Made by a program: the position numbers and the translations under genes
Shown here: piece by piece, positions 4,311 to 38,941 of the stretch
How positions within the stretch are numbered: position 1 is the first letter of the stretch
How the letters are laid out: each line of letters starts with the position of its first letter
From: a virus
Reading direction: 5' to 3' (one strand)
Length of the DNA: 64,000 nucleotides
IMG/VR virus record: IMGVR_UViG_3300042197_004918
Location: 32,001 to 96,000 of that record
The notes under the pieces: generated by a model
What the model saw: only the letters and a program-made list of their open reading frames with translations
Database searches by the model: none
Told to the model about the DNA's origin: nothing

Positions 4311-5492
4311 ATGAGTTCTCCTAACGATTTTTTCGACGTAATTGAATTCGATTACGAACTAGAGAAGAAAAGGTTCGTAGATAACATGAATTTGTTAAAG
4401 TCTATGGATGTCCGTGAACAGACATTCTATAAGAAGTGGTATGAACTACAAACTTACAGAAGCTTAGTAGCAAATTCGTCTATAACGAAGTCGAAAATTT
4501 GGGTTCCAAACGATATACAAGACGAGAAGGAGACTGTTAATCAGTTGGAATCCATGAATCCAACCATTGAACTTGTCACCAACTCCACGGAGAACGATTG
4601 GTTAATGCTGAGGCTTTTCTGTCACACGATGGAGTTCAGCCAAACGCCGGGAAGGTTTTTAAAACTAATCATACACGATGGAACACCTGAACGACGATTG
4701 TTGGGTGGGATTTCCATATCAAGCGACGTCATAGCCATAACTGACAGAGATAATTACATTGGATGGACTTCCGACGATAGGCTCAAGGGTGACAAGAGAA
4801 TCAACAATAGTGCGATTGGAAGCTGCATTATGTCTACACAACCCTTTGGATACAATTTCTTGGGTGGAAAACTTTCGGCTTGTTTGGTCACGACCGATGT
4901 TGTAAGAGACGCCTGGAAGAACGGATATAACAATGTAATGGCGGGCATGACCACCACGAGTTTATACGGAAGTTACAGTATGTATAATAGTCTGAAGTGG
5001 TGGCATAAATGTGGAACAAGTGCTGGAAAGATGCCCATAAAACCGGATGACACGGTTTATGAAGTCTGGCACCACTGGTTACAGGAAAATAAACCCCATG
5101 AGTATGCTGAGATGATGAAGCAGAAGGATGGAGTATCCGGCCCCGTGACAGGAGCGAAACAGAGGGTAATATCCAAGATATTCTCTCAGTTAAAGATGAA
5201 GACGTCGGATTACGTCCACGGATTTGAACGGGGAACATACTACAGTTCCTTCTATGAAAATACCAGAGAATTTCTTTGTAACAAGATTAAAGAGTCGGAT
5301 TTGAGAATGAAACCGCTCTACGCATCTGGGAAAACTTCCATATTAGATTGGTGGAGGCCCAAGGCCATAGACCGATACAAGAAGCTTAGAGCGGAGTCAA
5401 ATTTAAAGGGTGACATTCTCTATTACAATGATATGATCGGGATGGAATATAAAGAAGCCAAGGAGAAATACTTAAATGAAGTCGGAAGATAA
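4311..5492 (+). CDS. DUF4338 / Druantia DruA-like protein (putative Mom/GNAT-type DNA-modifying enzyme), paralog 1
   Basis: PGRFLKL, RDNYIGW, QPFGYNFLGGKL and TTTSLYG motifs; start moved to ATG 4311; N-terminal NDFFD peptide. Confidence 0.75.
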   Translation: MSSPNDFFDVIEFDYELEKKRFVDNMNLLKSMDVREQTFYKKWYELQTYRSLVANSSITKSKIWVPNDIQDEKETVNQLESMNPTIELVTNSTENDWLMLRLFCHTMEFSQTPGRFLKLIIHDGTPERRLLGGISISSDVIAITDRDNYIGWTSDDRLKGDKRINNSAIGSCIMSTQPFGYNFLGGKLSACLVTTDVVRDAWKNGYNNVMAGMTTTSLYGSYSMYNSLKWWHKCGTSAGKMPIKPDDTVYEVWHHWLQENKPHEYAEMMKQKDGVSGPVTGAKQRVISKIFSQLKMKTSDYVHGFERGTYYSSFYENTREFLCNKIKESDLRMKPLYASGKTSILDWWRPKAIDRYKKLRAESNLKGDILYYNDMIGMEYKEAKEKYLNEVGR

Positions 5493-5880
5493 AAAGCAAA
5501 TCAAAATACCCGACGTTGGTGATGACACGACGTTGTTCTTGACAAAAAATGGATACCGATTAGCGCAAGGATATAATCGTGTAGTTTTTGGAGGGCGAGG
5601 AGCCTATGTTGAGTTTCAACCGAAACACGTATTTCACACAAACATCCACATACCAGAAAATCAATTGTTTAGGTTAAGCGACCCCCGAATCTATTACATA
5701 GAGTTTAGAAGCGGTGATGAATCGAACGTGAAGGTTTATTATCAAATGAGAAGCGTAGCGTATGCCGACTACAAAATAGGTATGTTTTACATATGTCCGA
5801 CGCAACTCAAACTTCTCGATGGGGCTAGTGTGTTAAATCGGTCAACTGAAAATGAAAGAAGCGTAGACTTTTTTGAATAA
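5476..5880 (+). CDS. hypothetical protein ending in SVDFFE
   Basis: Overlaps upstream stop; GYNRVVFGGRGAYVEF and YADYK segments; function unknown. Confidence 0.7.
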   Translation: MKSEDKKQIKIPDVGDDTTLFLTKNGYRLAQGYNRVVFGGRGAYVEFQPKHVFHTNIHIPENQLFRLSDPRIYYIEFRSGDESNVKVYYQMRSVAYADYKIGMFYICPTQLKLLDGASVLNRSTENERSVDFFE

Positions 5881-5882
5881 TT

Positions 5883-6740
5883 ATGAAAACCATACAACTA
5901 GAAGACAGCGCGAAGGTTCCCACGTTAGACCAAATAAAGAAACACAGTGAGGACGGGTTAGTCCTGTGCTTCGCTGGTGTTGGTAATGCGTGGGCTAGAA
6001 AAAACGCCAACACGAGTTTGATTGTAGCGAAATACGGTAAGACAATATTGGTTGACTTAGGAACCAGTGTTCCTGTCTCATTGGAGTCACGCGGGGTGAG
6101 TATGTTAGATTTCGACTACTATCATTTTACCCATTCTCACGCCGACCACGTAGGCGCAGTCGAAGAACTTCTTCTAAAGTTGAGGTATATTAAGAAGAAG
6201 AAGGCAAAGGTGATTATCACACACGAATATCAACAGACGCTTTGGAACGAGACTTTGAAGGGTGGGTGTGAGATAAATGAAGACGGACTTTTGCGATTCA
6301 CGGATTTGATAGATGTAGTCCGACCTAATTGGGAATCGTGCCAACCGAGAGAGAAGTATCACATCAAACTTGACGGAATTTTGGATTTTGAGATTTTTAG
6401 AACATTCCATGTTCCGGGAGACGTAAACAGTTGGGAAAAAGCATTTTGGTCCACGGGATTACAATTGGACGGGAAGGTTGTATTTACAGCCGATACTCGA
6501 TTCGATTTGAGTATCTTTGAACATCTGGATTTTAGTTCGGTTGAAGCCATATTCCATGACTGTCAGTTATCCGGCCCAGGTTCAGTTCACGCAACGTATG
6601 AAGAACTTTCTCGACTTCTACCGTCATACAAGGAAAGAATGTATCTTACACACTACGGAGACAATTTTGATAAATTCTCTCCTGAGAAAGACGAGTTCGC
6701 TGGATTTGCTAAACCGTGGGTTTTGTATAAATTCGACTAA
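5883..6740 (+). CDS. MBL-fold metallo-hydrolase, Apyc1-like cyclic-nucleotide phosphodiesterase
   Basis: LVDLG, THSHADH, ADTRFD, IFHDCQL..PG.VHAT.EEL and HYGD motifs. Confidence 0.8.
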   Translation: MKTIQLEDSAKVPTLDQIKKHSEDGLVLCFAGVGNAWARKNANTSLIVAKYGKTILVDLGTSVPVSLESRGVSMLDFDYYHFTHSHADHVGAVEELLLKLRYIKKKKAKVIITHEYQQTLWNETLKGGCEINEDGLLRFTDLIDVVRPNWESCQPREKYHIKLDGILDFEIFRTFHVPGDVNSWEKAFWSTGLQLDGKVVFTADTRFDLSIFEHLDFSSVEAIFHDCQLSGPGSVHATYEELSRLLPSYKERMYLTHYGDNFDKFSPEKDEFAGFAKPWVLYKFD

Positions 6741-6768
6741 TATAAGAAACAAAATCGTAGAAATGTTG

Positions 6769-6797
6769 TTGACAGTTAATAACTCTGGTGGTAAAGT
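6769..6797 (+). promoter_or_regulatory. sigma70-type promoter
   Basis: TTGACA-17 bp-TAAAGT with TGn. Confidence 0.7.
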
Positions 6798-6861
6798 CTT
6801 AAACATAAGTTCGATATAACACTGTTGTTAGAGTCGAAACAAAAAAACAAACACAAAACAT

Positions 6862-7077
6862 ATGATCGCACGTAAAAACAAGAAAAACCGCACAGCATTC
6901 GTCTATGATACCGTTGGCAATTTTGAAGCCTTCGTTTCCCAGACATTCCGTGGAGCCAAACAGGGAAGTCAATTGACCCTTCGCACTGAAACCGACCGCG
7001 TTGACATCTCCGGCCGCGAACTCCGCGTCCTTCGTAACGTATTGACCAAGGCGAACGCATTGGCAGCTCGCGCCTAA
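6862..7077 (+). CDS. small basic hypothetical protein
   Basis: 71-aa ORF behind own promoter and A-rich leader. Confidence 0.7.
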   Translation: MIARKNKKNRTAFVYDTVGNFEAFVSQTFRGAKQGSQLTLRTETDRVDISGRELRVLRNVLTKANALAARA

Positions 7078-7091
7078 CCAAATTCCCACGA

Positions 7092-7382
7092 TTGATTAAA
7101 CGAATTTCAATTTCGGTGATCGTGGGTTTGGCGTGTTGGTTGTTTCCAAAATGTATGCCGGTAATCTTCGGATTGTCGGCATACATCTTTTTTGCATATA
7201 AATCCTCGGTGGAGGCAAACCTGATAAATCAAGACGAGAACAATAAAATTTTCCGAAGGGATATAAGTTCTTTGAATCAGCACATCAACGTGATACAGTC
7301 GTCTCTTAACAAGACATCCGCTCTGAATAGATATGGCAAAACCAAAAAAGAAAAGTTCGACAGAAGACGCTCCCAAGTATAA
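7092..7382 (+). CDS. putative small membrane protein
   Basis: Two hydrophobic segments then coiled coil; TTG start. Confidence 0.45.
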   Translation: MIKRISISVIVGLACWLFPKCMPVIFGLSAYIFFAYKSSVEANLINQDENNKIFRRDISSLNQHINVIQSSLNKTSALNRYGKTKKEKFDRRRSQV

Positions 7383-7821
7383 GTCTCTATTCGACCATAT
7401 CAATCAGATAAGGAACGTAAAAAGCCCCAAGTATTTCGACTCCCTCACCGATGGAGACAAAAAATCCTTCAATCATTACATGATATGTAGGTTTTTGAGC
7501 ATGGATAGTTCGTGCATCAACGAAGTCTCGTATCTTACCAAGATTTTTGATAAAATGGATAGTAAATCGTTTTACAAAGTTGCGTGTGCGTTGGTAAGTC
7601 CTGTAAAATACACACCATACATAAAGAGCAAAAACAAGAAATTTAATCCCACTCTTGTAGGATATATCTCCTCTAAATATGAAGTGAGCAGGTCAGATGC
7701 AAATGATTATTGCAAAACGTTGGTGTCAATAGAAGGTGGGATCGAAGAACTCGCCGAGATATGTAGGGGATATGGTTTGTCGGATAAAGAAATAGAAAAG
7801 ATTTTGAATGATGAAGACTAA
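7333..7821 (+). CDS. clamp loader small subunit (T4 gp62-like)
   Basis: SLFDHI, YMICRFLS, NE, YIK..KK and KYEVS..DA..Y pattern; size matches gp62. Confidence 0.7.
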   Translation: MAKPKKKSSTEDAPKYKSLFDHINQIRNVKSPKYFDSLTDGDKKSFNHYMICRFLSMDSSCINEVSYLTKIFDKMDSKSFYKVACALVSPVKYTPYIKSKNKKFNPTLVGYISSKYEVSRSDANDYCKTLVSIEGGIEELAEICRGYGLSDKEIEKILNDED

Positions 7822-8425
7822 ATACATAGGAATTTCCGGTGTCGCTAGAGTTGGAAAGAACTTATTCTGTGACATCGCGAGTGACATCTTAAAAGAAGAA
7901 TACGGAAAACGGTCGGAAACTTTCGCCTTGGCCACGTATCTCAAACGTGACTGTGAACCATTTTTGAAGGAAAAGTTCGGTCTAAACGTCTGGTCGGAAG
8001 TCACCGAGGAGAAAACCATTTTTAGACCATTTCTAATATGGTATGGTGGCGTTAAGAGAAACTGGTCAAAAGGTAGGTGCTGGATAGATATGTTAGACCC
8101 TGAGATTCGTGCCAGTAAAGCTGATGTATGCTTTGTCAGCGACGTCCGATTTGCTAAATATGCAAACGACGAAGCATTCTGGATTCAGTCGGAGTTATCC
8201 GGTAAACTCGTTCACTTGTCAAGATATAAAGGTTATCCCGGCAGCGAGTTGAGAGATTATACGCCGCCCGCATCAACTGATGAAAGCGAAAACGACCCGA
8301 TGTTAAAACGTATTTCGGATGCATCCTTAGAGTGGAAAGACTCTGGTTGTAAAACCCATGAAGACGCCAGAAAAAACTTGACTCTAAGAGAGAATGTCCG
8401 CCAGATATTATACAAGGTTTTGTGA
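7808..8425 (+). CDS. deoxynucleoside monophosphate kinase (T4 gp1-like)
   Basis: IGISGVARVGK P-loop, FALA..LK, VSDVRF..NE-like motifs. Confidence 0.75.
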   Translation: MMKTKYIGISGVARVGKNLFCDIASDILKEEYGKRSETFALATYLKRDCEPFLKEKFGLNVWSEVTEEKTIFRPFLIWYGGVKRNWSKGRCWIDMLDPEIRASKADVCFVSDVRFAKYANDEAFWIQSELSGKLVHLSRYKGYPGSELRDYTPPASTDESENDPMLKRISDASLEWKDSGCKTHEDARKNLTLRENVRQILYKVL

Positions 8426-9189
8426 AAGAGAATCTATACAATAATGGAGACACGTTTTTTGACATAGAGAAGTCTAAACTGCAAATCCAACTTATACAAT
8501 GCACTACGCCTGTGCAAAATAAGCTATTTCGTGATACCATAAATAAACACCACTCGTATGTAAAATACAAAGATTCTCCGACGAGGAATCTTAGATACTT
8601 GGTCTACGAAGGCGTGAGTGGAAATCACGTAGGAGCCGTGGGATTGAGCAGTGCCACAATTGCGGTGGCTTGCCGAGATGCATTTGTTGGGTGGAACAAT
8701 GAAACTAAGATGCGTCACCTAAACGAAGTCGCTAACAATAGTAGATTTTGCTTAATAAGAGACAACATCACCATAAAGAATGTGGCAAGTATGTGTCTTC
8801 GCCAGCTGCGCGAAGTTGGTGCAGTGGACTGGAAGAATCGTTACAACGACAGATTAATACTGCTTGAGACGTTTGTTCAGCCCGACAGAGATGTTTCATT
8901 AGACGGACACGTATCGAGAAACGGCAGTTGTTATAGAAGTGATAACTGGGTCGAGGTCGGAATGACATCTGGTGCAAGTATCCAAAAGTCTCCGTTATTG
9001 TTATGGGCGAAGGAGAAGGGAGAAAGAGGAAGGCTTGCCAGAGAAAACAAAGAGGAGTGTCTAAAGATATATGGAAAGTATCTTGGAGAACACAATGGTA
9101 GCGGATATAAAGTAACTGAAAGTAAGAAAAAAATTGTGTTTGTAAGACCTCTGGTCCATAATTGGAAAACCTTATTGAACCATGAGTGA
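8422..9189 (+). CDS. DUF4338 / DruA-like protein (Mom-like), paralog 2
   Basis: HHSY, RDAFVGW, ANNSRF, LLETFV and G.CYRSDNW..VG.T.G motifs; N-terminal DTFFD peptide. Confidence 0.8.
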   Translation: MKENLYNNGDTFFDIEKSKLQIQLIQCTTPVQNKLFRDTINKHHSYVKYKDSPTRNLRYLVYEGVSGNHVGAVGLSSATIAVACRDAFVGWNNETKMRHLNEVANNSRFCLIRDNITIKNVASMCLRQLREVGAVDWKNRYNDRLILLETFVQPDRDVSLDGHVSRNGSCYRSDNWVEVGMTSGASIQKSPLLLWAKEKGERGRLARENKEECLKIYGKYLGEHNGSGYKVTESKKKIVFVRPLVHNWKTLLNHE

Positions 9190-10510
9190 TTTTTTTGAAT
9201 ACGACAATCCGGAGGTAGAGTGTAAATATAGAATTTTGGTGTGGCCAAACATAACCTACTCCGAGGATTTGGAGAAGGATTCCTACGTGGTAGTGTTGTC
9301 AAACGTCATTCGTGAAGTCAACAAGATGGTTCCGGGAATATTTTGGTCTATAGTCACACCAAAAGAAGTCAAGAGTTTGAAATTCCCAAACACAGAACAA
9401 CTCATATTGGATTTTCCGACGTATCCAAATTCGATGAGGATAAATTTCGACTTCAAGAAAGTGATGAACCTTGTCGATTGGCGGAAAAACGATTACGACA
9501 TCATTTACAGCCATTTGCCAGAACACACGCTTCAACTTTCAAACCTCTTCAACAACCAGACTAATATACGTCCCAAGTTTTTGGGATACTGTCATTGGTA
9601 TGAAGTAGAGGAAAACACTGCCTACGAGAAGAACGTGTTTATGAACAACATCGCGGGAACTCTTGAAATGCAAGAGTGTGGGGTGAACTCGAACTGGCTG
9701 AAGAACCTCATTCTAAAGAAGGCTTCCAAATTCTACTCTGATTCTGTGTTGAAAGACTTGGAGAGAATAATTCAGCCTCACTATCTCGGAACGGATGTAG
9801 ATTTCGGAAACAATACGAACTTGATTCATAAATCCATTCTTTTCAACCACCGACCAAATGAGTATACGGGTTGGAATGAGTTTTTGAAATCAATGGATAA
9901 GTTATACGAAACTCGTCAAGACTTCACTGTGTATGTGACTCTTGCGGAAGTCGAACGGCCCTACATCAAGAAAGTGTGCCTCAATCGTAAAGACTACACG
10001 AATTTCTTAAAACAGATGCACGTTGGAGTTGGGTTCTTCAAAGACTACAGCGCATGGTCTATTTCCGCTACGGATGGGATGAGCCGTGGACTTCCATATC
10101 TTCTGCCTAAAAGACTTTGTTATCCCGAAATGGTTGGTGAGGATTATCCGTTGTTCTTCACAACCGACGCAGACTTTCTTTCAAAAATTGGAACCATTCT
10201 CGACGACCCTACCTTTAGAAAGACCCATACGGAAACTCTAAAATCCGTGGTTACAGACCTCTCGTGGAATAACACGGTCAAGGAGTGGTTTGGTGGGTGG
10301 AATGTCTTTGAGTTCGACAAACTCACCAAGGATACTCCTAGATACAATGATATTTTAAAATTGATAAAGACCAAAGGGTTTGTGTCAAAAGAAACCTTGA
10401 TGGATTTCCTCGGTTGGGGTGTCAATATCTCCATGTCTCCTTATAGAAATAGACTCCGAGACGAACCAAATATAACCCTCTTAAAGTCCGGTTATCAATA
10501 TAATAATTGA
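9182..10510 (+). CDS. GT-B (GT4-like) glycosyltransferase with C-terminal HTH-like domain; candidate DNA glycosyltransferase
   Basis: SHLPEH, ILFNHR, WSISATDG..GLPYL and YPEM motifs; extra C-terminal ~55 aa helical domain; begins MSDFFE. Confidence 0.75.
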   Translation: MSDFFEYDNPEVECKYRILVWPNITYSEDLEKDSYVVVLSNVIREVNKMVPGIFWSIVTPKEVKSLKFPNTEQLILDFPTYPNSMRINFDFKKVMNLVDWRKNDYDIIYSHLPEHTLQLSNLFNNQTNIRPKFLGYCHWYEVEENTAYEKNVFMNNIAGTLEMQECGVNSNWLKNLILKKASKFYSDSVLKDLERIIQPHYLGTDVDFGNNTNLIHKSILFNHRPNEYTGWNEFLKSMDKLYETRQDFTVYVTLAEVERPYIKKVCLNRKDYTNFLKQMHVGVGFFKDYSAWSISATDGMSRGLPYLLPKRLCYPEMVGEDYPLFFTTDADFLSKIGTILDDPTFRKTHTETLKSVVTDLSWNNTVKEWFGGWNVFEFDKLTKDTPRYNDILKLIKTKGFVSKETLMDFLGWGVNISMSPYRNRLRDEPNITLLKSGYQYNN

Positions 10511-10539
10511 TAATCTAATCTTTTCTAATCTTTTCTAAT
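10511..10539 (+). repeat. 10-bp-period direct repeat (CTAAT x3), candidate operator
   Basis: taatctaatcttttctaatcttttctaat immediately upstream of the RHH gene. Confidence 0.55.
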
Positions 10540-10563
10540 GTAGACCAATATGTATGGTGCATA

Positions 10564-10743
10564 ATGGTTACAGAAGAAGAAAAAACTTCAATACAAGTCT
10601 CGGTTTCAATCCGAGATCTTCTTCGGGAATTTTGTGACGAAAACGGATTCAAAATGAATCGTTTCGTCGAAAAAGCCATCCTACAAGCCATCTCAGGAAG
10701 TTACAGAATATCAAATTATGAAAATGACAAAAGCACAAGCTGA
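10564..10743 (+). CDS. ribbon-helix-helix DNA-binding protein (59 aa, not in ORF track)
   Basis: Translated by hand: MVTEEEKTSIQVSVSIRDLLREFCDENGFKMNRFVEKAILQAI..., strand-helix-G-helix pattern. Confidence 0.7.
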   Translation: MVTEEEKTSIQVSVSIRDLLREFCDENGFKMNRFVEKAILQAISGSYRISNYENDKSTS

Positions 10744-10903
10744 AGCGAAGGTCTACGAACTAACCGAATCTCTTCTCATAACTAAGCGAGATCAAAAAGA
10801 CGTTAATTCTGGTTACAAGGAAAAGATTAAGGACATCGAGTCTGAGATTAAAGCCATAATCGAAGAATATGACTCAACAGGTTCGGCACCAGCAAAACCA
10901 TAA
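10718..10903 (+). CDS. small coiled-coil hypothetical protein
   Basis: 61-aa ORF in operon. Confidence 0.65.
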   Translation: MKMTKAQAEAKVYELTESLLITKRDQKDVNSGYKEKIKDIESEIKAIIEEYDSTGSAPAKP

Positions 10904-10909
10904 TTATCT

Positions 10910-11464
10910 ATGAAAAAGAAAAAGATACTACTCTTATCAGACGACCTCCGAATGTTTAGTGGCGTCGCGTGCCAGTCTCGTGAAATTGTTTTGAACACTA
11001 TCCATCACTATGATTGGGTTCAAATTGCAGGTGCTATCCATCACCCAGAGGCCAACAAGATAGTTGATATGTCACAGGCGGCAGCGGAATACGCGAAGAC
11101 TAAGAAGGAAGAAACATATCTTAAACTTTATCCGGTTGATGGATACGGTAACGAAGATATGTTGCTGTCAGTTATGGATATGGAAAAGCCGGATGCTTTG
11201 ATGCACTTCACCGACCCTCGTTTTTGGGGATGGTTGTATCAGATTGAGAGAAAGATTAGACAGAAGATTCCATTGACGTATCTAAATATTTGGGATGACC
11301 TACCATATCCAATGTGGAACCGGCCATTTTATGAGAGCTGTGACTCATTGTTCAGCATCAGCAAGCAGACCATGAACATCAACAAGTGGGTATTGGGGCC
11401 CGAAAACTGTCGTTTAATCGAAGGTGATCTTGACAAGGACGGAAATTTGGTTAAACTCCAATAA
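10910..11464 (+). CDS. glycosyltransferase (GT4), N-terminal domain half
   Basis: KILLLSDD..SGVA, EKPDALMHFTDPRFW, WDDLPYP, SISKQT; lacks donor-binding domain. Confidence 0.8.
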   Translation: MKKKKILLLSDDLRMFSGVACQSREIVLNTIHHYDWVQIAGAIHHPEANKIVDMSQAAAEYAKTKKEETYLKLYPVDGYGNEDMLLSVMDMEKPDALMHFTDPRFWGWLYQIERKIRQKIPLTYLNIWDDLPYPMWNRPFYESCDSLFSISKQTMNINKWVLGPENCRLIEGDLDKDGNLVKLQ

Positions 11465-11467
11465 GTT

Positions 11468-11815: not shown

Positions 11816-11819
11816 ACCT

Positions 11820-11987: not shown

Positions 11988-11990
11988 AAT

Positions 11991-31388: not shown

Positions 31389-31391
31389 AAT

Positions 31392-32567
31392 ATGAACATT
31401 AGCTTCATTCAACCATCGCGGGACAATCTGAAATATCTTAAATGGTCTTACGACGCATTAAGAACCAATCTCAGTCACAGAAATCACGAGATATGCGTTG
31501 CCGACGATTTTAGTTCCGATGGAACGGAGGAGTGGTGTAAGGAGATGTCGGAAAAAGACCCACACTTTAAATACATTCGTAATAATGGCCCTAAACGAGT
31601 TGGACATACAATTCTTTACGATAGATTGATAAACGAAGTTGCCACTAATGATGTGGTGATGATTTATCATGCGGATATGTGGGCGTGCCCAAACTTCGAC
31701 CTAGCGGTGGAGAAACACATCAAGCCTGGGACGGTTGTAAGTTTGACCAGAATAGAACCACCGTTGCACCCACCGGGTCCAGAAAAGATTGTTGCGGGAT
31801 TTGGAACCGAACCGGAAGATTTTGACCCAGAGAAGTTTTTGACGTGGTTTAAGTCGCTCAAGAATACATACGAAAACGTCACCACAGAAGGAATCTTCGC
31901 TCCTTGGGCAATATACAAGGCAGATTTTCAATCAATCGGTGGTCACGATAAACTCTTCGCTCCACAGTCTAAGGAAGATAGTGACATCTTTAACAGATTT
32001 CTTTTGAATGGTTACAAGTTTGTTCAAACGTGGGATGGATTTGTGTATCACATGACTTGTAGAGGAAGTCGGTTCAACCCAACGCTTACGGTGGTTGGTA
32101 AAGAAAGCCCCGAGTGGTTAAAACAGAATGAACGGAGTGCTAGGAACTTCATACGAAAGTGGGGTCATTTTGTTAAACATGATTCGTATATGAAACCCAT
32201 CGTTCCGAAACGGTATAACGTTGGTTTTGTAATCCGAAACGCCAATGAGCAGTTTATTGCTGCGTTGGAACCGTGGTGTGACCGTCTATACTCGGATGTA
32301 AATTACAACCGGTATATAGAAATAGAACAACCGAACACGCTTTATGATTTGAGAAGCAAACTGAAATCCGCTAAATCAGAGGAACCTACCGCTGACGTTT
32401 TGGTTGAGTTTGACGCATCTGTGTTTAATAACAATCATTTTAACTTAATATCAAATCTGAGCGATGTCGTCACCGAGACTAACGAGGCCGGGTCGTTTGA
32501 GTTCGACATATTCAAGATAAAAATAAACCAAGTCAGGTCGTTTGAGAAAGACCTCATAAAACTGTGA
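31392..32567 (+). CDS. GT2 glycosyltransferase
   Basis: DDFSSDGT, HADM, GGHD..F, EDSD, YH. Confidence 0.85.
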   Translation: MNISFIQPSRDNLKYLKWSYDALRTNLSHRNHEICVADDFSSDGTEEWCKEMSEKDPHFKYIRNNGPKRVGHTILYDRLINEVATNDVVMIYHADMWACPNFDLAVEKHIKPGTVVSLTRIEPPLHPPGPEKIVAGFGTEPEDFDPEKFLTWFKSLKNTYENVTTEGIFAPWAIYKADFQSIGGHDKLFAPQSKEDSDIFNRFLLNGYKFVQTWDGFVYHMTCRGSRFNPTLTVVGKESPEWLKQNERSARNFIRKWGHFVKHDSYMKPIVPKRYNVGFVIRNANEQFIAALEPWCDRLYSDVNYNRYIEIEQPNTLYDLRSKLKSAKSEEPTADVLVEFDASVFNNNHFNLISNLSDVVTETNEAGSFEFDIFKIKINQVRSFEKDLIKL

Positions 32568-32731
32568 AGAACTTCAAGAAGTTGCTTGTAAAGTATCTTG
32601 ATTCCAATGGAAACGAGAAGTTGGAACCATCTGAGATATTGTATCCACTTGCACTATTCTTCGTCATAGACATAATGGCCGGGACAATCTCCAATCTTTT
32701 CTACGATTTTATGAAGGGTATACTAAAATGA
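32564..32731 (+). CDS. small membrane protein (55 aa, not in ORF track)
   Basis: GTG start overlapping upstream stop; LDSNGNEKLE loop followed by hydrophobic segment. Confidence 0.5.
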   Translation: MKNFKKLLVKYLDSNGNEKLEPSEILYPLALFFVIDIMAGTISNLFYDFMKGILK

Positions 32732-33072
32732 TTGAAATCTACCACAACATGATAGCCGTAAACCTATTCGTATTAATCGTTTGGTTTAAAACCGACGCTC
32801 TGATAGAGTATGCGAAACTTATCAGAGTCGGAAAGTGGATTTATGTAGATGACTTTGAGAAGAAACGGGCGGAAGATTTTGAACTGACATACCTCACTTA
32901 CCTGCGTCAGCACAGGAATTGCTTCTTTACAAGACTCATAACGTGTCCCATCTGTGTAACATCGTGGATGTTTCTTATAACCTTAATATCGGAAAATCCG
33001 ATTCCAAATTTTTCTCTAAATGCTACGATAACACTGGCTCTTTACTATTTATTCTCAAAGTTAATGAGATGA
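32728..33072 (+). CDS. membrane protein with CxxC (DUF1360-like)
   Basis: LITCPICVTSW and several hydrophobic segments. Confidence 0.55.
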   Translation: MIEIYHNMIAVNLFVLIVWFKTDALIEYAKLIRVGKWIYVDDFEKKRAEDFELTYLTYLRQHRNCFFTRLITCPICVTSWMFLITLISENPIPNFSLNATITLALYYLFSKLMR

Positions 33073-33353
33073 TTAGGATAAACCATTTTACAGATTTTTA
33101 CAACCTCATAAATTCAGTGGGGTTATCCTCAACGTCGCCATACGACAATTTCACCAGAACGGTCGATAGGTTTGTCTCACTTTGCGGATGTGACCAAGCT
33201 ACCAAGAAGGCTGAAGCCGGTGACGATTCAAAGAAATTGTATATGTCTCTGGCTCGGTCGGAAATTGGTTCTCAGATTCAAATGATAAAGAAAAAGAGAA
33301 ACGTGTCCAAGATAGAGTTTTATTCTGACAACTCTTTGTTGTCTAAGTATTAA
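33069..33353 (+). CDS. hypothetical protein
   Basis: ATG 33069 overlaps upstream stop; CGC motif. Confidence 0.55.
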   Translation: MIRINHFTDFYNLINSVGLSSTSPYDNFTRTVDRFVSLCGCDQATKKAEAGDDSKKLYMSLARSEIGSQIQMIKKKRNVSKIEFYSDNSLLSKY

Positions 33354-34246
33354 TCCTCTTTCGCGTCACACGCCACTTTTTTGTGTGGGCAGTATTTACA
33401 GTTCTTCTTCCCTTTTCCCGGAACCTTTGGATAGTTTCCATTTTTTCTAAACTCTCCGTTTTCGTGGAAACACTCTTCGACAAAGTTGGTGAACCCCGTT
33501 ATAGACTCCACCACTGCACCTTTATTGCTGCATGGCTGGAACAGTTGAATTCTATTCTGAGGGAACGCGACGTTCTCGAATAACTTCCGTTTAACTATAA
33601 AGAACTCGACTTCTATATCTTCAAGTGAGACATTGAATTTTTTGCTGTAGAACGCCTTGTATATTATGAGCTGACTGTATTTGCTTTCATCTTCCTTCAT
33701 ATAGGAATTCCAGCCTGCTGAAGAAGTTTTAAAGTCTATTATCTTGTATTTCCCCGAGGCCTTGTCACGCAACACCAAGTCTATGAAAGCGATGAATTGG
33801 ACATTGTGTTTGATGTCTAACTCAAGCGGCAATTCAGCACCAATGAATTCGTATTTTTTACTTGGGAAGTTCTTTAGACGGTTCACCGGTTTTGTGAAAT
33901 CTCCGATAATATCCTGAGCATCAAAGCAGAATTCGGTGTATTCATCCTCGGTGTATTTTAGTCCGCTTTTAGCTTTACCATCTTCAAGTTCACGTTCAAA
34001 TGCTTTCTTGAAAACATCAAAGAGGTTTAGAGAATCTGCCTCTACGTGAGTTTTTGTGTAGAGAGTTTCTATGTAAAGCTGAAGTGCTTCGTGCATAGCG
34101 GTTCCGAAACAGGTGTTTATGGAACCTTCAAACTTACGAAGATTCTCCAGATAATCCAATCGCCAAGCATTAGGACATTTAAACCATTTTGCGTATTGAG
34201 AATAGCTCACCCGCTTCTTTTTTATCTCGGTTTTTATATCATCCAT
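33350..34246 (-). CDS. PD-(D/E)XK Cas4/RecB-like exonuclease
   Basis: SYSQ..CP, GTAMHE, FIDLV, IIDFKT, QL..Y, CKYC..C Fe-S ligands. Confidence 0.88.
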   Translation of the reverse strand: MDDIKTEIKKKRVSYSQYAKWFKCPNAWRLDYLENLRKFEGSINTCFGTAMHEALQLYIETLYTKTHVEADSLNLFDVFKKAFERELEDGKAKSGLKYTEDEYTEFCFDAQDIIGDFTKPVNRLKNFPSKKYEFIGAELPLELDIKHNVQFIAFIDLVLRDKASGKYKIIDFKTSSAGWNSYMKEDESKYSQLIIYKAFYSKKFNVSLEDIEVEFFIVKRKLFENVAFPQNRIQLFQPCSNKGAVVESITGFTNFVEECFHENGEFRKNGNYPKVPGKGKKNCKYCPHKKVACDAKED

Positions 34247-34252
34247 ACACTT

Positions 34253-34280
34253 ACTATAACATGATTATCGTGATAGTCTA
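34253..34280 (-). promoter_or_regulatory. sigma70-type promoter, leaderless
   Basis: TAGACT-16 bp-TATAGT with TGn; ATG 6 nt downstream. Confidence 0.5.
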
Positions 34281-34292
34281 CTACTTATAGTT

Positions 34293-35060
34293 ATGAGACA
34301 TTTTATACTGATTGCTTTGTTTTTCTCGTGTTTGACGACCATCGCTGCCGTTTATCCGACCCCTACGTATTTATTGAAATCTGCCGGAAAAATCGAAGCC
34401 GTGACATTGAGTGACAATGGGGGTATATCTACAAATAAGTTGGTGGTCGGTGAAACGTATGTCAGAGAGAATTCTCAATCAGACTATAACACGCATACGA
34501 ACGCTTCTTTATCTTTGCTGCTTGCCAACGAAACGATTGTCAGTTTGGATGAAAACACTGAGTTCAAATTACATTCATCGACGGTAGATATTGTAAACCG
34601 AGGTTCACTCCCATCCAGCTCGTCGTTCACTAATAAAAACCATGTCGCATCGCTGATGGGTGGTTCCGTTGACATAATCAACACCTCTTCAAATGGAACA
34701 TTTTTGTTGCAGACGCCCAGAGTTTCTATGACAGTGGGCAAGGGTAAATTTAGGGTGATAGTGCAGGGAAAAACAACAATCGTGGTCGCCCTTGAAGGAA
34801 CGGTGACTTTACATAAACTTGTGGAATCGAAATCAGGAGTAATATCCGATGGGAAATTTGCCCACGTAACTACATACTACAGCCTCGTTACCAAAGGCGT
34901 AGATGTTTTGAATAATGGCAAGGCCACCGCAACGGTCAAACCAATCGACGAAGAAGATTCAAAGAAGATGACAGAATCTTTCAGCGACCTTCTACGCCTA
35001 GGGTCTTCGGTGATGTTCGTTGAGATAGATAATAAAACGGTTGGTGTAAAAATTCGTTGA
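34293..35060 (+). CDS. secreted FecR-like beta protein
   Basis: N-terminal signal peptide; L.NET.V.LDENT, LQTP and VALEGTV FecR-type motifs. Confidence 0.65.
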   Translation: MRHFILIALFFSCLTTIAAVYPTPTYLLKSAGKIEAVTLSDNGGISTNKLVVGETYVRENSQSDYNTHTNASLSLLLANETIVSLDENTEFKLHSSTVDIVNRGSLPSSSSFTNKNHVASLMGGSVDIINTSSNGTFLLQTPRVSMTVGKGKFRVIVQGKTTIVVALEGTVTLHKLVESKSGVISDGKFAHVTTYYSLVTKGVDVLNNGKATATVKPIDEEDSKKMTESFSDLLRLGSSVMFVEIDNKTVGVKIR

Positions 35061-35084
35061 CCATTTATCTATGAATGGTAATAT
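35057..35084 (+). promoter_or_regulatory. sigma70-type promoter of polymerase operon
   Basis: TTGACC-16 bp-TAATAT with TGn. Confidence 0.6.
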
Positions 35085-35087
35085 GGT

Positions 35088-35318
35088 TTGGTGACCAGTG
35101 AAACTTTAAAAACATTTACAGACGATGAATTGGCTCTACTCTTATATGTAGTCAATTCTCATACACCGAAACTTCTTAACGGTGAAGTAACTCCAAACCT
35201 GTTAAAATCCATACACCTGTGGAAACTATCAGAGATGCTCAAGAAAGCAGAACCGAATTTGTTGGATGAAGCCAAACCTATTTTTACTTGTGTTCTCGAA
35301 AAACTTGGTATAAAGTGA
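35088..35318 (+). CDS. hypothetical protein
   Basis: 76-aa ORF immediately before the polymerase. Confidence 0.55.
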   Translation: MVTSETLKTFTDDELALLLYVVNSHTPKLLNGEVTPNLLKSIHLWKLSEMLKKAEPNLLDEAKPIFTCVLEKLGIK

Positions 35319-35324
35319 GAGTAG

Positions 35325-37856
35325 ATGTATCAAAATATTTTCGTAGACAAGAAGACAGAAACCATTTTCATATGGGATGACCAAGCGGGCTTAGTGAAAG
35401 TCCCGATTTCTGACGCAACCTATGCTTACAGAAAGCGTGACGGTGGCCGATACAAATCCTTATATGGTGATGAACTTGAACGGATACGAGACTTTTCTCC
35501 CCGCGACCCGTTGCTGTTTGAATCTGACGTCCCGTTGACCACTAGGGTATTGATAGACGCTTATGAGGACTCTGACGAACCCTCCACTGGCCATGTCGTG
35601 CTGTTCCTCGACATAGAAATCGACATTACAAACGGTTTCTCCACTCCGCAGGACGCAGAAAACGAAATCACTGCGATTGCTTTATACGACGACATTACTA
35701 AGAAGTATACCGCGTTAATTCTCGATAAGAAAGGTGACTTGCCTGACGAATCGAATCAATCGGATGCAACTGTATTATCATTCAACTCCGAAGAATCTCT
35801 GCTTTCGTGTTTCTTGAACAAGGTTGAAGAAACTCGCCCAACCATTATTACGGGGTGGAACGTGGCCGAGTTCGATATGCCCTACCTCATTAACAGGATA
35901 ACAAAGGTGCTCGGAAGAAATCAGTCTTCCCGTATGTCACCTATCAACGTCTCATACATCAGCAAGGCTTTTGGAGACGTGGTTGTGGCTGGAGTTTCGA
36001 TTCTTGACTACATGGTTTTGTATAAGAAGTTCATTGGCCGAAACGAACCAAGTTATGCATTGGGAGCGATAGCAAAACGTGTAGTCCAGATGGATAAGTT
36101 GGCCTACGACGGAAACCTGCAGGATTTATTTAGGTCTGACATCAAGAAATACATCGAATACAACTTGAACGACGTCAAGATTGTGGTCGCTATAGACCAG
36201 AAATTAAAGTTCATTGATTTGGCGAGGAACATTTGCCACACGGGCCACGTTCCATACGAATACTTCGGTATGTCAAGCCGATATATCGAAGGAGCGATGT
36301 TGATATACCTTCGCAGGATGGGGCTTGTGGCTCCAAATAAATCGTTGGAAGGTCAAGCAGAGTTTGCTGCAAGGACTGAGGGCGACGAAGATGGGTTTGA
36401 AGGAGCATTCGTTAAAGACCCGGTTCCGGGAAGATATGATTGGGTGTATGACTTGGATTTAACCTCCATGTATCCCAACATTATGATAAGTCTAAACATC
36501 AGCCCGGAGACGGTCATTTCAAAGGTAGAAGGGTGGAACGTAGAGAAATATCTTAAAAACGAATATACGTCAGTCAAGATGTCGGGAACCGAATATCCAA
36601 TTGACGATTTCAAGAAGATGATGGAAGAGAAGAAGTTTTCTATCGCTTCAAATGGTGTAATTTACAGAAACGACAAACCGGGACTGATTCCTTCTATTTT
36701 GATAAAGTGGTTCGATGAAAGAAAAGCGTTGCGTAAGAAAGCCAAGGAATTCGCTGAGGCGGGAGACACGGAACAGTATGAATTCTATAATGGTCGTCAA
36801 GGCGTCCAAAAGATTCTACTCAACAGCGCATATGGTGTCTTGGGATTGGAAGTATTCCGATTTTACAACAAAGACAACGCCGAGGCCGTCACTCTAACGG
36901 GCCAGGATATCATCAAGACCACCAACAAAGCCATCAACCTCTATTACAAGAATGTCCTCCAGAAAGATGGAGATTATGTTGTATATGTAGACACCGATTC
37001 GGCCTTCGCAAGTGCCGTTCCTATCATCGAAAAGACGATGCCCGAAGTAGATTTGAAAGATGATAAACAGATGACGGTCGCAATATTGAAAGTTGCCGGT
37101 GACGTCCAACTGTTCGTCAATAAGTTTTACGATGTCATGGCTAAGAAGTTCTTTAACATCGAAAAACACCGATTTGATATTAAACAGGAAGTAATATCGA
37201 AGTCTAGTTTCTGGCTTGCCAAGAAACGGTATTGCCAACTTATCATAAACAAAGCCGGTTTACCTGTGGATGAACTTGAAATTAAGGGGATTGACGTCGT
37301 AAGAACCGGCTTCCCCGCGATTTTCAGAAAGTTTATGAAAGAGTTCATCGTTGATATTTTGAAGAAAGTTGACCAACGGAAGATAGACGATGATATTGTA
37401 AAGTTTCTGGAAGACATAAACACATTGTCGGTTGTGGAACTTGCTAAGAACACATCCGTAAAGTTTATCAGTTTGGATAAAACCAAGAATTACAATCCGA
37501 AGGAGAGGAAGCCCTTTCAGACCATGAAGGGCACGCCCGCACAAGTCAAGGCTGCCTTGATGTATAATGACTTACTTGAAAAGTGGGAATTGACCAAACA
37601 CGTCCAACCAATCTTTAACGGGCAGAAGATTAAGTGGGTGTATATCCGTGATAATGAGTATGGTATTGATGCTCTTGCTATGAAAGCGGATGGGAATGAC
37701 CCGAAGGAAATGATTGAGTTTATCGCTAAGTATATTGACCGAAAAGCGATGTATGACCAAGAGTTGAAAAGCAAGTTGGGTGACTTCTATTCAATTTTGA
37801 AGTGGGATTATCCAAGTCTGGAGAGTCGAAAAGCAGAGGAGTTCTTTTCTTTTTAA
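35325..37856 (+). CDS. family B DNA polymerase (T4 gp43-like)
   Basis: Exo DIEID, GWN..FD, YNLND; pol DLTSMYP, KILLNSAYG, YVDTDS, KKRY; ends AEEFFSF. Confidence 0.97.
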   Translation: MYQNIFVDKKTETIFIWDDQAGLVKVPISDATYAYRKRDGGRYKSLYGDELERIRDFSPRDPLLFESDVPLTTRVLIDAYEDSDEPSTGHVVLFLDIEIDITNGFSTPQDAENEITAIALYDDITKKYTALILDKKGDLPDESNQSDATVLSFNSEESLLSCFLNKVEETRPTIITGWNVAEFDMPYLINRITKVLGRNQSSRMSPINVSYISKAFGDVVVAGVSILDYMVLYKKFIGRNEPSYALGAIAKRVVQMDKLAYDGNLQDLFRSDIKKYIEYNLNDVKIVVAIDQKLKFIDLARNICHTGHVPYEYFGMSSRYIEGAMLIYLRRMGLVAPNKSLEGQAEFAARTEGDEDGFEGAFVKDPVPGRYDWVYDLDLTSMYPNIMISLNISPETVISKVEGWNVEKYLKNEYTSVKMSGTEYPIDDFKKMMEEKKFSIASNGVIYRNDKPGLIPSILIKWFDERKALRKKAKEFAEAGDTEQYEFYNGRQGVQKILLNSAYGVLGLEVFRFYNKDNAEAVTLTGQDIIKTTNKAINLYYKNVLQKDGDYVVYVDTDSAFASAVPIIEKTMPEVDLKDDKQMTVAILKVAGDVQLFVNKFYDVMAKKFFNIEKHRFDIKQEVISKSSFWLAKKRYCQLIINKAGLPVDELEIKGIDVVRTGFPAIFRKFMKEFIVDILKKVDQRKIDDDIVKFLEDINTLSVVELAKNTSVKFISLDKTKNYNPKERKPFQTMKGTPAQVKAALMYNDLLEKWELTKHVQPIFNGQKIKWVYIRDNEYGIDALAMKADGNDPKEMIEFIAKYIDRKAMYDQELKSKLGDFYSILKWDYPSLESRKAEEFFSF

Positions 37857-37859
37857 ATT

Positions 37860-38069
37860 ATGAATTCTAAATTAACTCACGCGTGTTTGCCTCCGGATAG
37901 AGAGGAAATATTTCGATTGTTGGATATGTTTGAAGGTGGTGCATATACGGAAAATTATATGGTTGCATCGGTGATGAAACATCTTAGAGGAAGAGCTAAC
38001 CCCGTATTAGTGAGAAACGTCGTCGCGGAATACTTTAAAGGAAGTAATAGAAAGATAAGAGTAGTATGA
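37860..38069 (+). CDS. small protein resembling the GatB/YqeY C-terminal helical domain
   Basis: MVASVMKHLRGRANPVLV pattern. Confidence 0.5.
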   Translation: MNSKLTHACLPPDREEIFRLLDMFEGGAYTENYMVASVMKHLRGRANPVLVRNVVAEYFKGSNRKIRVV

Positions 38070-38941
38070 AATACAAAAAATTACTTCCCTTCCACGATGA
38101 TGTCAAAGTTATGACTCAATTTGGAATGCTCCCATTGTCTGTTATGGAGTTTGCTAACGATGATAAATGGAACATTGCATACTTTGAACAGGATGAGTCT
38201 GAGAAACGTCGGTCGGATGATTGTGAATATCTTTCTGGATTGGGGATGAGCGAGTTCAGCAGTGCTATCTGTGAATTTATTGTGAGATATTGGAGTTTGG
38301 AGAATGCCAATATAGTTGACCCGTTCGCTGGAAGAGCTACGAGGGCCATCATTGCTTCAAAGTTAAATCGAAAGTATTGTGGATATGAAATCTCTCCAAA
38401 AACATACACTCGTAGTCAAGAACAATACTTAAAGGCCAAGGTTGACCCGATTTTATATCTATCCGACGGCTGTTTTATGAAAGAGACTCCGGATGACTTT
38501 GCCCACTTGGTTATGACCTGTCCGCCATACGGTTCGATTGAGAAATATGAAAGCGTTCCCGGTCAACTGAGCGACAAGAAGAATTATGACGAATTCTTGG
38601 CATCTGTAAGTGTCTGTGTATCCAATATACAACGTGTTTTGAAGCCTGGAGGGTTTTGTTGTTGGGTTGTAGGAGATTGGAGAGATGGGTCTGGGTATCA
38701 CCAGTTTGGTAGCGACAGTATTCAATTGTTTAAAAAGAACGGATTGATTCCCCATGACACCATTATTATAAAGAACAACTCCCCATTCGCGGCCCTACAA
38801 GCTGGTAAATCCGCCAGCAAGAGGATTTCTTCAAAGATTCACGAATACCTCCTTGTTTTCAGAAAAGAGGGTGAGTTGGATTTAACTGGTCTAAAGATGG
38901 AAGAGATTAACAAAACAGCAACGGAGTTTTTTGAATTATGA
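38066..38941 (+). CDS. DNA amino-methyltransferase (N4-C/N6-A)
   Basis: DPFAG SAM motif, TCPPY catalytic motif, LKPGG, HEYLLVF; ends TEFFEL. Confidence 0.88.
   Translation: MKYKKLLPFHDDVKVMTQFGMLPLSVMEFANDDKWNIAYFEQDESEKRRSDDCEYLSGLGMSEFSSAICEFIVRYWSLENANIVDPFAGRATRAIIASKLNRKYCGYEISPKTYTRSQEQYLKAKVDPILYLSDGCFMKETPDDFAHLVMTCPPYGSIEKYESVPGQLSDKKNYDEFLASVSVCVSNIQRVLKPGGFCCWVVGDWRDGSGYHQFGSDSIQLFKKNGLIPHDTIIIKNNSPFAALQAGKSASKRISSKIHEYLLVFRKEGELDLTGLKMEEINKTATEFFEL

What the first reader, a model, noticed from the sequence alone, without database searches (positions are those of the whole stretch)
4311..38941. Shared acidic-FF terminal peptide links the polymerase to five putative DNA-acting proteins: candidate clamp-tethered DNA hypermodification system
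Seen: the polymerase ends ..AEEFFSF*. The same [D/E/T]-F-F-[D/E/S] peptide sits at a terminus of the MTase (..TEFFEL*, 38941), DUF4338 paralog 1 (MSSPNDFFD, 4311), the unknown 134-aa protein (..SVDFFE*, 5880), DUF4338 paralog 2 (..GDTFFD, 8422) and the HTH-tailed GT (MSDFFE, 9182). I did not see it at the termini of the ~20 glycan-cluster enzymes or the fibre proteins. Known: T4/RB69 gp43 dock on the gp45 clamp via a terminal hydrophobic peptide (SLDFLF/LFDMFDF type). Inference: this is the phage's clamp-binding motif, and acyl-, glycosyl- and methyl-transferases ride the clamp to modify nascent DNA. The motif would also label which unknown genes act on DNA.
Basis: partly seen in the sequence, partly recalled or inferred. 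Interest (0 to 1): 0.9.

Follow-up and report, generated by a model that had tools for sequence, protein, structure and literature searches.

The report
Clamp-docking tails on phage DNA-modifying enzymes
In this 174-kb uncultured phage, the DNA polymerase, a Mom-type and a methyl-type DNA modifier, two DruA-like acyltransferases, a glycosyltransferase and a small unknown protein all carry the same short Phe-Phe peptide at one end; it most likely hooks them onto the phage's own sliding clamp so that new DNA is modified as it is copied, but binding has not been measured.

Summary
[DET]FF[DES] occurs 9 times in the 258-ORF proteome, and 7 of these lie within 20 residues of a terminus (0.84 expected; 0 of 300 shuffles reach 7).

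I add a seventh, a Mom-family enzyme just upstream of the window that ends in FF.

The peptide is conserved at the same terminus in relatives:
- 115 of 116 homologues of the 134-aa protein
- 113 of 117 Mom homologues
- 113 of 118 glycosyltransferase homologues (an aromatic pair; FF itself in 32)
- 68 of 75 DruA-like homologues (an aromatic pair, FF or FW)

It sits on variable, disordered extensions that Mu Mom lacks.

The polymerase tail occupies the position of the RB69 gp43 clamp-binding 11-mer. ORF 39113-39853 is a confident PCNA/gp45-fold clamp. The clamp loader's large subunit also has an aromatic-acidic N-terminal extension.

Clamp docking is therefore the best explanation (about 0.6), but binding is untested because the complex predictor was unavailable. 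A single "hypermodification pathway" is not shown: the thymidylate synthase is ordinary and no hydroxymethylase was found.

The scan has made the same kind of finding on other phage genomes (e1-5361891, e1-5361909, e1-5643168, e1-5643181). I rate it a new variant of a known kind.

The parts
35325..37856 (+). Family-B (gp43-like) DNA polymerase. Its last 13 residues (37815-37853) form the tail ending EEFFSF.
   Evidence: Pfam DNA_pol_B and exo1. The best solved relative is RB69 gp43, E 1.8e-63. That alignment ends at residue 830 here and 892 of 903 in RB69, so the tail is the positional equivalent of the RB69 11-residue clamp peptide. The tail is kept as EFFxF in relatives at 46-79% identity.
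39113..39853 (+). Sliding clamp (gp45/PCNA fold), the proposed docking hub
   Evidence: No Pfam hit. A profile of 61 homologues hits the RB69 and T4 gp45 clamps and PCNA as the top four PDB sequences. AF2 mean pLDDT is 97.2. Foldseek TM is 0.72-0.76 to PCNA chains, E about 1e-13.
39866..40825 (+). Clamp-loader large subunit (gp44/RFC-like) with an N-terminal aromatic-acidic extension, SFSFEE (39866-39892)
   Evidence: phrog_168, E 8e-73. The extension before the conserved WxEKYRP box is present in G000, G001, G002 and L003-L008/L016. It is absent in the L009-L011/L015 lineage, whose polymerase tail also differs.
38066..38941 (+). Amino-type DNA methyltransferase with the C-terminal tail TEFFEL (38921-38938)
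   Evidence: Pfam N6_N4_Mtase, E 2e-21, and PHROG DNA methyltransferase families. DPFAG and CPPY motifs are present. FF is kept in two orthologues although the flanking residues change.
4311..5492 (+). DruA/DUF4338-like protein 1, with the N-terminal motif DFFD at 4326-4337
   Evidence: Pfam DruA, 78.6 bits against a cut-off of 27. 68 of 75 viral homologues have an aromatic pair (FF or FW type) in the first 24 residues. The most distant homologues lack the N-terminal extension altogether.
5476..5880 (+). 134-aa protein: a beta-tent-like globular domain followed by a disordered tail ending DFFE (5866-5877)
   Evidence: No Pfam, PHROG or PDB sequence hit. AF2 mean pLDDT is 87, with residues 121-134 mostly below 50. 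The top structural matches are all beta-tent folds (Mis18/Yippee, MsrB, cereblon CULT, RIG-I CTD), Z 5-8.2. F132 and F133 are invariant in 50 aligned homologues. 115 of 116 homologues have FF in the last 10 residues. In the L003-L008/L016 lineage the gene lies next to the polymerase gene, directly downstream in all but L003.
7333..7821 (+). gp62-like clamp-loader small subunit, embedded in the cluster
   Evidence: phrog_225 'clamp loader of DNA polymerase', E 1.3e-13.
7808..8425 (+). dNMP-kinase-like protein, overlapping the gp62-like gene and DruA-like 2
   Evidence: phrog_139, deoxynucleoside monophosphate kinase, E 8e-11.
8422..9189 (+). DruA/DUF4338-like protein 2, with the N-terminal motif DTFFD at 8449-8463
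   Evidence: Pfam DruA, 90.6 bits. The motif is kept in the G001 orthologue.
9182..10510 (+). GT4-like (GT-B) glycosyltransferase, with the N-terminal motif DFFE at 9188-9199
   Evidence: No Pfam hit for this sequence. Near-identical viral clusters in the ESM Atlas carry PF00534 Glycos_transf_1 in 92% of members. 113 of 118 full-length homologues have an aromatic pair or a hydrophobic-F-x-F pattern in the first 12 residues. The DruA-then-GT gene pair is conserved in a distant marine T4-like phage.
5883..6740 (+). Apyc1-like metallo-beta-lactamase-fold hydrolase, a neighbour in the cluster. Membership of the motif set is uncertain.
   Evidence: Pfam Anti-Pycsar_Apyc1, 109 bits against a cut-off of 50. 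The C-terminus VLYKFD (VVYKF in G001) resembles the hydrophobic-Y-x-F variant but may belong to the fold.

Best explanation
The terminal aromatic pair (FF, usually flanked by acidic residues) is this phage clade's clamp-interaction peptide.

The gp43-like polymerase uses its 13-residue C-terminal tail to dock on the trimeric gp45/PCNA-fold clamp (39113-39853). The clamp is loaded by the gp44-like and gp62-like subunits. The same peptide has been grafted, through short variable linkers at either terminus, onto:
- a Mom-type GNAT
- an amino-type DNA methyltransferase
- two DruA-like GNATs
- a GT-B glycosyltransferase
- a beta-tent protein

These proteins would therefore be recruited to clamps on, or left behind on, freshly replicated duplex DNA, and would modify it before host nucleases can reach it.

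Shown here: the motif, its enrichment and conservation, its position on disordered add-on tails, the clamp fold, and the positional match to the RB69 peptide.

Inferred: that the clamp is the receptor, and that all clients act on DNA.
For: 1. Enrichment at termini: 7 of 9 occurrences against 0.84 expected.
2. Deep conservation of FF while the flanks vary: 115 of 116 homologues of the 134-aa protein, 113 of 117 for Mom, an aromatic pair in 113 of 118 for the GT and 68 of 75 for the DruA-like protein.
3. The peptide sits on add-on segments:
- Mu Mom (8bv8) ends at residue 241 of this Mom, so the last 22 residues are an extension.
- tblastn matches in the 40 cultured-phage Mom records sampled (of 278) stop at about 241-247.
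- The 134-aa tail is predicted to be disordered.
4. The polymerase tail starts where the RB69 gp43 alignment ends, 11 residues before the RB69 C-terminus. Those 11 RB69 residues were co-crystallised with the clamp, and T4 gp43, gp33 and gp55 share interchangeable 'hydrophobic and acidic' clamp-binding C-termini joined by divergent linkers (PMC2988020).
5. The clamp fold is confirmed.
6. The clamp loader, which must bind the clamp, has an aromatic-acidic N-terminal extension in the same lineages.
7. The gp62-like gene sits inside the 4311-10510 cluster. In relatives the 134-aa gene lies next to the polymerase gene.
8. Unrelated transferases carry the tail in sister lineages: a 128-aa GNAT and a GT2.
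9. Mom acts after replication on dsDNA (PMC13219725), which fits tethering to loaded clamps.
Against: - No binding test of any kind was possible.
- The peptide is neither a canonical PIP box (no Q, no aliphatic residue at position 4) nor a bacterial beta-clamp motif.
- The DruA-like N-terminal peptide lies only 3-8 residues from a conserved segment and may be partly structural.
- Motif variants (FW in DruA-like proteins) do not co-vary with the polymerase tails, which stay FFxF in the same genomes. That test gave no positive support.
- In T4, the one earlier claim of this kind (alpha-glucosyltransferase with gp45) was not reproduced in a 2025 preprint.
- No gp55 homologue was found, so the second classical class of clamp client could not be checked.
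Confidence: 0.6

Rival explanations
1. The peptide does dock on the clamp, but some clients do not modify DNA. The GNATs or the glycosyltransferase might modify replisome proteins. The 134-aa protein might be a regulator or competitor that occupies clamp pockets, for example to time polymerase exchange or to block host factors.
For: Only Mom and the MTase belong to families with a shown DNA substrate. The 134-aa protein has a beta-tent fold with no catalytic assignment. No modified-nucleotide precursor pathway was found.
Against: The DruA-then-GT pairing and the co-occurrence with Mom and the MTase are most simply read as DNA modification. GT-B enzymes that glycosylate DNA exist in T4 (established knowledge).
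Confidence: 0.15
2. The peptide docks on a different shared hub of the replication factory, not on the clamp. Candidates are the gp32-like SSB, the helicase, or the polymerase-accessory 69-aa protein.
For: Acidic-aromatic tails that recruit partners are also used in SSB-centred networks (established knowledge: the E. coli SSB tail, T7 gp2.5 and gp4). This phage's SSB has its own conserved FDxLF tail, so several tail codes coexist.
Against: The polymerase copy sits at the RB69 clamp-peptide position. SSB and T7-type tails are ligands carried by the hub, not by its many clients. The clamp loader shows a related N-terminal peptide.
Confidence: 0.12
3. There is no common partner. The terminal FF has separate structural, solubility or turnover roles in each family, and the resemblance to the polymerase tail is convergent or coincidental.
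For: The motif is short. The genome-wide p value is only about 0.07 after correction. The DruA-like N-terminal peptide is close to a conserved segment.
Against: FF is near-invariant on otherwise variable, disordered or add-on tails in at least four unrelated families. The tail has been acquired independently by other transferases in sister lineages. It is absent from the Mom homologues sampled from phages of other lineages.
Confidence: 0.08

Closest known systems
T4/RB69 gp45 clamp clients (gp43 polymerase, gp33, gp55)
   Same: A phage-encoded trimeric clamp. Short hydrophobic-plus-acidic peptides at the extreme terminus, joined by divergent flexible linkers and shared by functionally unrelated proteins. 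The polymerase tail is at the homologous position.
   Different: The clients here are DNA-modifying or transferase enzymes rather than transcription factors. Half of the peptides are N-terminal. The core is an FF (or FW) pair. No gp55 or gp33 homologue was detected.
PIP-box clients of PCNA, including eukaryotic DNMT1 and the archaeal RFC large subunit
   Same: A PCNA-fold clamp used as a toolbelt. An aromatic pair inserts into a hydrophobic pocket, the motifs lie at either terminus, and a maintenance methyltransferase is tethered to replication (established knowledge; PCNA-peptide complexes are listed).
   Different: The canonical Q-x-x-[ILM]-x-x-[FY]-[FY] pattern is not met; only the aromatic pair is shared. 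The organism is a phage, and several chemically different modifiers are involved.
Phage Mu Mom (tRNA-dependent adenine N6-carbamoylmethylation)
   Same: The 263-aa protein upstream of the window is a Mom-family GNAT (PF25680, E 3e-43; 8bv8, E 6e-11).
   Different: It has a 22-residue C-terminal extension ending in FF that Mu Mom lacks. Its catalytic activity and cosubstrate were not tested.
T4 alpha-glucosyltransferase proposed to bind gp45
   Same: The same idea: a DNA-modifying enzyme riding the clamp during replication.
   Different: That proposal rests on in-vitro binding, which a 2025 preprint using C-terminally tagged enzymes did not reproduce. No shared sequence motif was described there. 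Here the evidence is a conserved motif and there are no binding data.

Membership tests
T4/RB69-type clamp-interaction peptide clients | The phage encodes a gp45/PCNA-fold sliding clamp. | tested here: met
   The profile hits RB69 and T4 gp45 and PCNA. AF2 pLDDT is 97 and Foldseek TM is about 0.74 to PCNA.
T4/RB69-type clamp-interaction peptide clients | The polymerase carries the peptide at its extreme C-terminus, after the last conserved thumb segment. | tested here: met
   The alignment to RB69 gp43 ends 13 residues before this C-terminus and 11 before that of RB69.
T4/RB69-type clamp-interaction peptide clients | A short hydrophobic/aromatic-plus-acidic peptide on a variable, flexible linker, shared by unrelated proteins. 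| tested here: met
   FF is invariant with variable linkers. The tail is predicted disordered. It is an extension absent from Mu Mom.
T4/RB69-type clamp-interaction peptide clients | Physical, motif-dependent binding to the clamp. | not testable with these tools
There is no experiment.
Canonical PIP box | Q-x-x-[ILM]-x-x-[FY]-[FY] | tested here: not met
   None of the tails has Q at position 1 or an aliphatic residue at position 4. Only the aromatic pair is present.
Bacterial beta-clamp-binding motif | The QL[SD]LF or QxxLxF type. | tested here: not met
   The tails have no Q or L in the required positions. The phage also encodes its own PCNA-type clamp.
Mom family (PF25680) | HMM match above the curated cut-off, with homology to solved Mu Mom. 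| tested here: met
   148 bits against a cut-off of 27.1. 8bv8, E 5.7e-11, over residues 66-241. Activity was not tested.
DruA / DUF4338 (PF14236) | HMM match above the curated cut-off. | tested here: met
   78.6 and 90.6 bits against a cut-off of 27. The other Druantia genes (DruB-E) were not searched for in this genome, so this is domain membership only, not a Druantia system.
N6/N4 amino DNA methyltransferases (PF01555) | HMM match, plus a SAM-binding motif and a (D/N/S)PPY-type catalytic motif. | tested here: inconclusive
   The HMM gives 77 bits. DPFAG is present. The catalytic motif reads CPPY, an unusual first residue.
Beta-tent fold (Yippee/Mis18, MsrB, CULT, RIG-I CTD) | Structural match covering the domain. 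Many members also have a Zn-binding cysteine set. | tested here: inconclusive
   Z is 5-8.2 over about 90 residues and the top of the list is coherent, but Z is near the background level. No invariant cysteines are seen in 50 homologues.

The most novel reading that the evidence does not exclude
A replication-coupled 'modification toolbelt'. In a large clade of environmental phages, the phage clamp recruits a set of chemically different DNA modifiers through one interchangeable terminal peptide. The set includes a Mom-type and DruA-type GNATs, a GT-B glycosyltransferase and a methyltransferase. The peptide can then be used to predict which orphan phage genes act on DNA. A corollary is that the DruA domain of Druantia defence systems would be a DNA-modifying (marking) enzyme.
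Probability: 0.3. Interest if true: 0.85.

Novelty: new variant of a known kind. Interest (0 to 1): 0.72.

Why it matters
If the tails do bind the clamp, the phage protects its DNA by coupling several modification chemistries directly to the replication fork. That would be a viral counterpart of PCNA-DNMT1.

It would also give a simple sequence rule: a terminal aromatic pair matching the polymerase tail. The rule could flag DNA-acting enzymes among the many unknown genes of uncultured phages.

It would assign a working hypothesis (DNA modification at the replisome) to three families that now have none:
- phage DruA/DUF4338 proteins
- a family of more than 1,000 glycosyltransferase homologues
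- a beta-tent protein family

It would also reopen the contested T4 alpha-glucosyltransferase and gp45 question from a different angle.

Tried and rejected
There is no verdict either way.
- hhalign of a 6-sequence DruA-like alignment against a 3-sequence Mom alignment found no similarity. The alignments are too shallow to say anything about a GNAT relationship, so I rely on the literature (PMC10853773; PMC13219725).
- Co-variation test: DruA-like N-termini come in FF and FW variants, but the polymerases of four FW-type genomes still end in FFxF. The test is uninformative rather than supportive.
- Search for a hypermodified-nucleotide route: the only PF00303 gene is a standard thymidylate synthase (TIGR03284 above its cut-off) with an insertion.
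- phmmer with HTVC008M gp55 found no homologue in this genome. Classical transcription clients of the clamp could therefore not be examined.
- Sequence searches of the PDB with profiles of the 134-aa and 442-aa families gave nothing significant.
- The Pfam, PHROG and NCBIfam libraries searched gave no hit for the 134-aa or the 442-aa protein.
- Other terminal aromatic candidates (the DUF5662 protein, the DUF5661 protein, a baseplate-hub homologue and others) were dropped. Their peptides lie inside a domain or are not conserved.
- A literature search found no paper describing clamp-binding tails on Mom, DruA or phage methyltransferases. This is absence in the held library only.
Full report
**Context.** The window is bases 32001-96000 of a 173,817-bp viral record. 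IMG/VR classes the record as a 'provirus' and CheckV estimates 49% completeness. The nearest named relative is Microcystis phage Mel-JY01, with 44% polymerase identity. IMG/VR holds relatives with 46-79% polymerase identity. I fetched three of their contigs whole: G001 (79%), G002 (63%) and G003 (47%).

**Observation.** In my 258-ORF call of the whole genome, [DET]FF[DES] occurs nine times. Seven occurrences lie within 20 residues of an N-terminus or 15 of a C-terminus.
- Per-protein shuffles give 0.84 terminal hits on average and never more than 5 in 300 trials.
- FF is the most terminus-enriched of 364 dipeptide cores in this frame (binomial p 2e-4).
- One of the seven is probably chance (a hydrophobic 106-aa ORF).
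- The motif was defined after the fact and the corrected p is only about 0.07, so conservation has to carry the argument.

**A seventh member.** Just upstream of the window, at genome 30548-31339 (L041:10548-11339), lies a Mom-family protein that ends in TETFF (PF25680, E 3e-43; phrog_1384). Mu Mom (PDB 8bv8) aligns to it only up to residue 241, which is Mu Mom's own C-terminus. The last 22 residues are therefore an added acidic linker plus FF. In the 40 cultured-phage Mom records sampled (of 278 with a match), the tblastn matches also stop at residue 241-247 or earlier.

**Conservation.** In G001 all seven proteins keep FF at the same terminus while neighbouring residues change. G002 has homologues of four of them (polymerase, DruA-like 1, the 134-aa protein and Mom), and all four keep it. 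Across public proteins and viral contigs:

| Family | Homologues with the peptide |
|---|---|
| 134-aa protein | 115 of 116 have FF in the last 10 residues; F132 and F133 are invariant in a 50-sequence alignment whose preceding dozen columns are variable |
| Mom | 113 of 117 have FF within 0-3 residues of the C-terminus |
| 442-aa glycosyltransferase | 113 of 118 have an aromatic pair or a hydrophobic-F-x-F pattern in the first 12 residues |
| DruA-like | 68 of 75 have an N-terminal aromatic pair, in FF or FW variants; the most distant members lack the N-terminal extension altogether |

The AF2 model of the 134-aa protein has a confident globular domain (residues 1-120) and a low-confidence tail carrying the motif. 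Sister lineages put the same tail on other transferases:
- a 128-aa GNAT
- a GT2 glycosyltransferase, and possibly a sulfotransferase-like protein beside the polymerase

This is the behaviour of a portable short linear motif.

**Why the clamp.**
- ORF 39113-39853 has no Pfam hit. A profile of its homologues finds the RB69 and T4 gp45 clamps and PCNA as the four best PDB sequences. Its AF2 model (pLDDT 97) matches PCNA at TM about 0.74.
- It is followed by a gp44-like clamp-loader subunit.
- The polymerase is a gp43 homologue, and RB69 gp43 is its best solved relative. That alignment runs to residue 830 here and residue 892 of 903 in RB69. The 13-residue tail therefore replaces the 11 RB69 residues that were co-crystallised with the clamp.
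- T4 gp43, gp33 and gp55 share interchangeable 'hydrophobic and acidic' clamp-binding C-termini on divergent linkers (PMC2988020).
- Related polymerases keep EFFxF. The T4-like pelagiphage HTVC008M ends its polymerase in EDFF and its gp55 in an aromatic-acidic peptide.
- The clamp-loader large subunit has an N-terminal SFSFEE-type extension in the lineages with FF tails. The extension is missing in a lineage whose polymerase tail differs. This is weak but independent support, and it shows that N-terminal placement is plausible.
- The gp62-like small subunit and a dNMP-kinase-like gene sit inside the 4311-10510 cluster.
- In the L003-L008/L016 lineage the 134-aa gene lies next to the polymerase gene, directly downstream in all but L003.

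**What the clients are.**
- Mom is a GNAT that modifies adenine after replication on dsDNA, using glycyl-tRNA (PMC13219725).
- The MTase is an amino-type DNA methylase with DPFAG and an unusual CPPY motif.
- The two DruA/DUF4338 proteins pass the Pfam cut-off. The literature describes DUF4338 as a GNAT domain (PMC10853773). Their substrate is unknown.
- The 442-aa protein is GT4-like, judged by ESM-Atlas neighbours. Its gene follows a DruA-like gene with overlapping stop and start codons, both here and in a distant marine phage.
- The 134-aa domain resembles the beta-tent fold at modest Z. One viral hit is a helicase fusion.
- The cluster also holds an Apyc1-like anti-Pycsar hydrolase.
- I found no precursor pathway for modified nucleotides, because the thymidylate synthase is ordinary. 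Any modification would therefore be post-replicative.

**Limits.**
- Binding was not tested.
- The peptide is not a canonical PIP box or a beta-clamp motif.
- The FW and FF variants do not co-vary with the polymerase tails.
- The only earlier claim of a clamp-bound phage DNA modifier (T4 alpha-glucosyltransferase) was not reproduced in a recent preprint, although that study used C-terminal tags.

**Novelty.** Clamp toolbelts and terminal clamp peptides are textbook, and PCNA-DNMT1 is a known analogue. I found no paper describing such tails on Mom, DruA-like, glycosyltransferase or methyltransferase enzymes of phages. Earlier agents of this scan reported the same kind of pattern, with other peptide variants, in other large phage genomes. 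Those are unchecked notes and not independent evidence, but the FW variant seen here in DruA-like homologues matches one of them.

**Verdict.** This is a new variant of a known kind. Confidence in clamp docking is about 0.6. Confidence in a unified hypermodification pathway is about 0.3.

Noticed in passing
window 478-1446 and 1448-3532: A MoxR/CbbQ-like AAA_5 ATPase whose C-terminus ends in a conserved proline-phenylalanine (VPF or PPF) in G000, G001 and G002. It is followed by a 694-aa protein with no family hit. That protein's N-terminus carries a conserved acidic aromatic peptide (SDFW or SDYW, then acidic residues) in G000, G001 and G002, with a similar ADFW in G003. This may be a further tail code or a variant of the same one.
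   Followed up: partly
L041:2203-3045 (genome 22203-23045): A gp32-like single-strand DNA-binding protein (phrog_1192) ends in a conserved F-D-x-L-F peptide. Similar tails occur in Mel-JY01 and in a marine phage (L048:11335-12078). This is a second, distinct terminal motif in the replication module.
   Followed up: partly
window 5883-6740: An Apyc1-family (anti-Pycsar) metallo-beta-lactamase hydrolase, 109 bits against a cut-off of 50, sits between the 134-aa gene and the gp62-like gene. This puts an anti-defence gene inside the cluster.
   Followed up: no
window 40792-41358: A nucleoside 2-deoxyribosyltransferase-family protein (PF05014, 33.7 bits against a cut-off of 28.8) lies directly after the clamp loader. 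It may remodel the nucleotide pool.
   Followed up: no
L042:14921-16093 (genome 110921-112093, minus strand): The thymidylate synthase is 390 aa long, with an insertion that splits the HMM match. It scores as an ordinary ThyA, not as a hydroxymethylase.
   Followed up: partly
L003:15668-16054 (-), L003:12541-13137, L009:17138-18343: In sister lineages, a 128-aa GNAT, a weak sulfotransferase-like protein next to the polymerase, and a GT2 glycosyltransferase each end in an FF- or FY-type aromatic tail.
   Followed up: partly
L048:8805-11338: The DruA-like then GT4-like gene pair, with overlapping stop and start codons, is conserved in a distant marine T4-like phage that carries PhoH, Hsp20 and gp25 genes. 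Both proteins there also begin with aromatic-pair peptides.
   Followed up: partly
window 62681-64000 (runs off the window): A protein of about 1,124 aa on the minus strand, which another first-reader note (e1-5699412) describes as PSCyt/DUF1553-like. It has an internal DFFE at residue 29 that is probably unrelated. The record is classed as a 'provirus' with 49% completeness, so host or foreign DNA at this end cannot be excluded.
   Followed up: no
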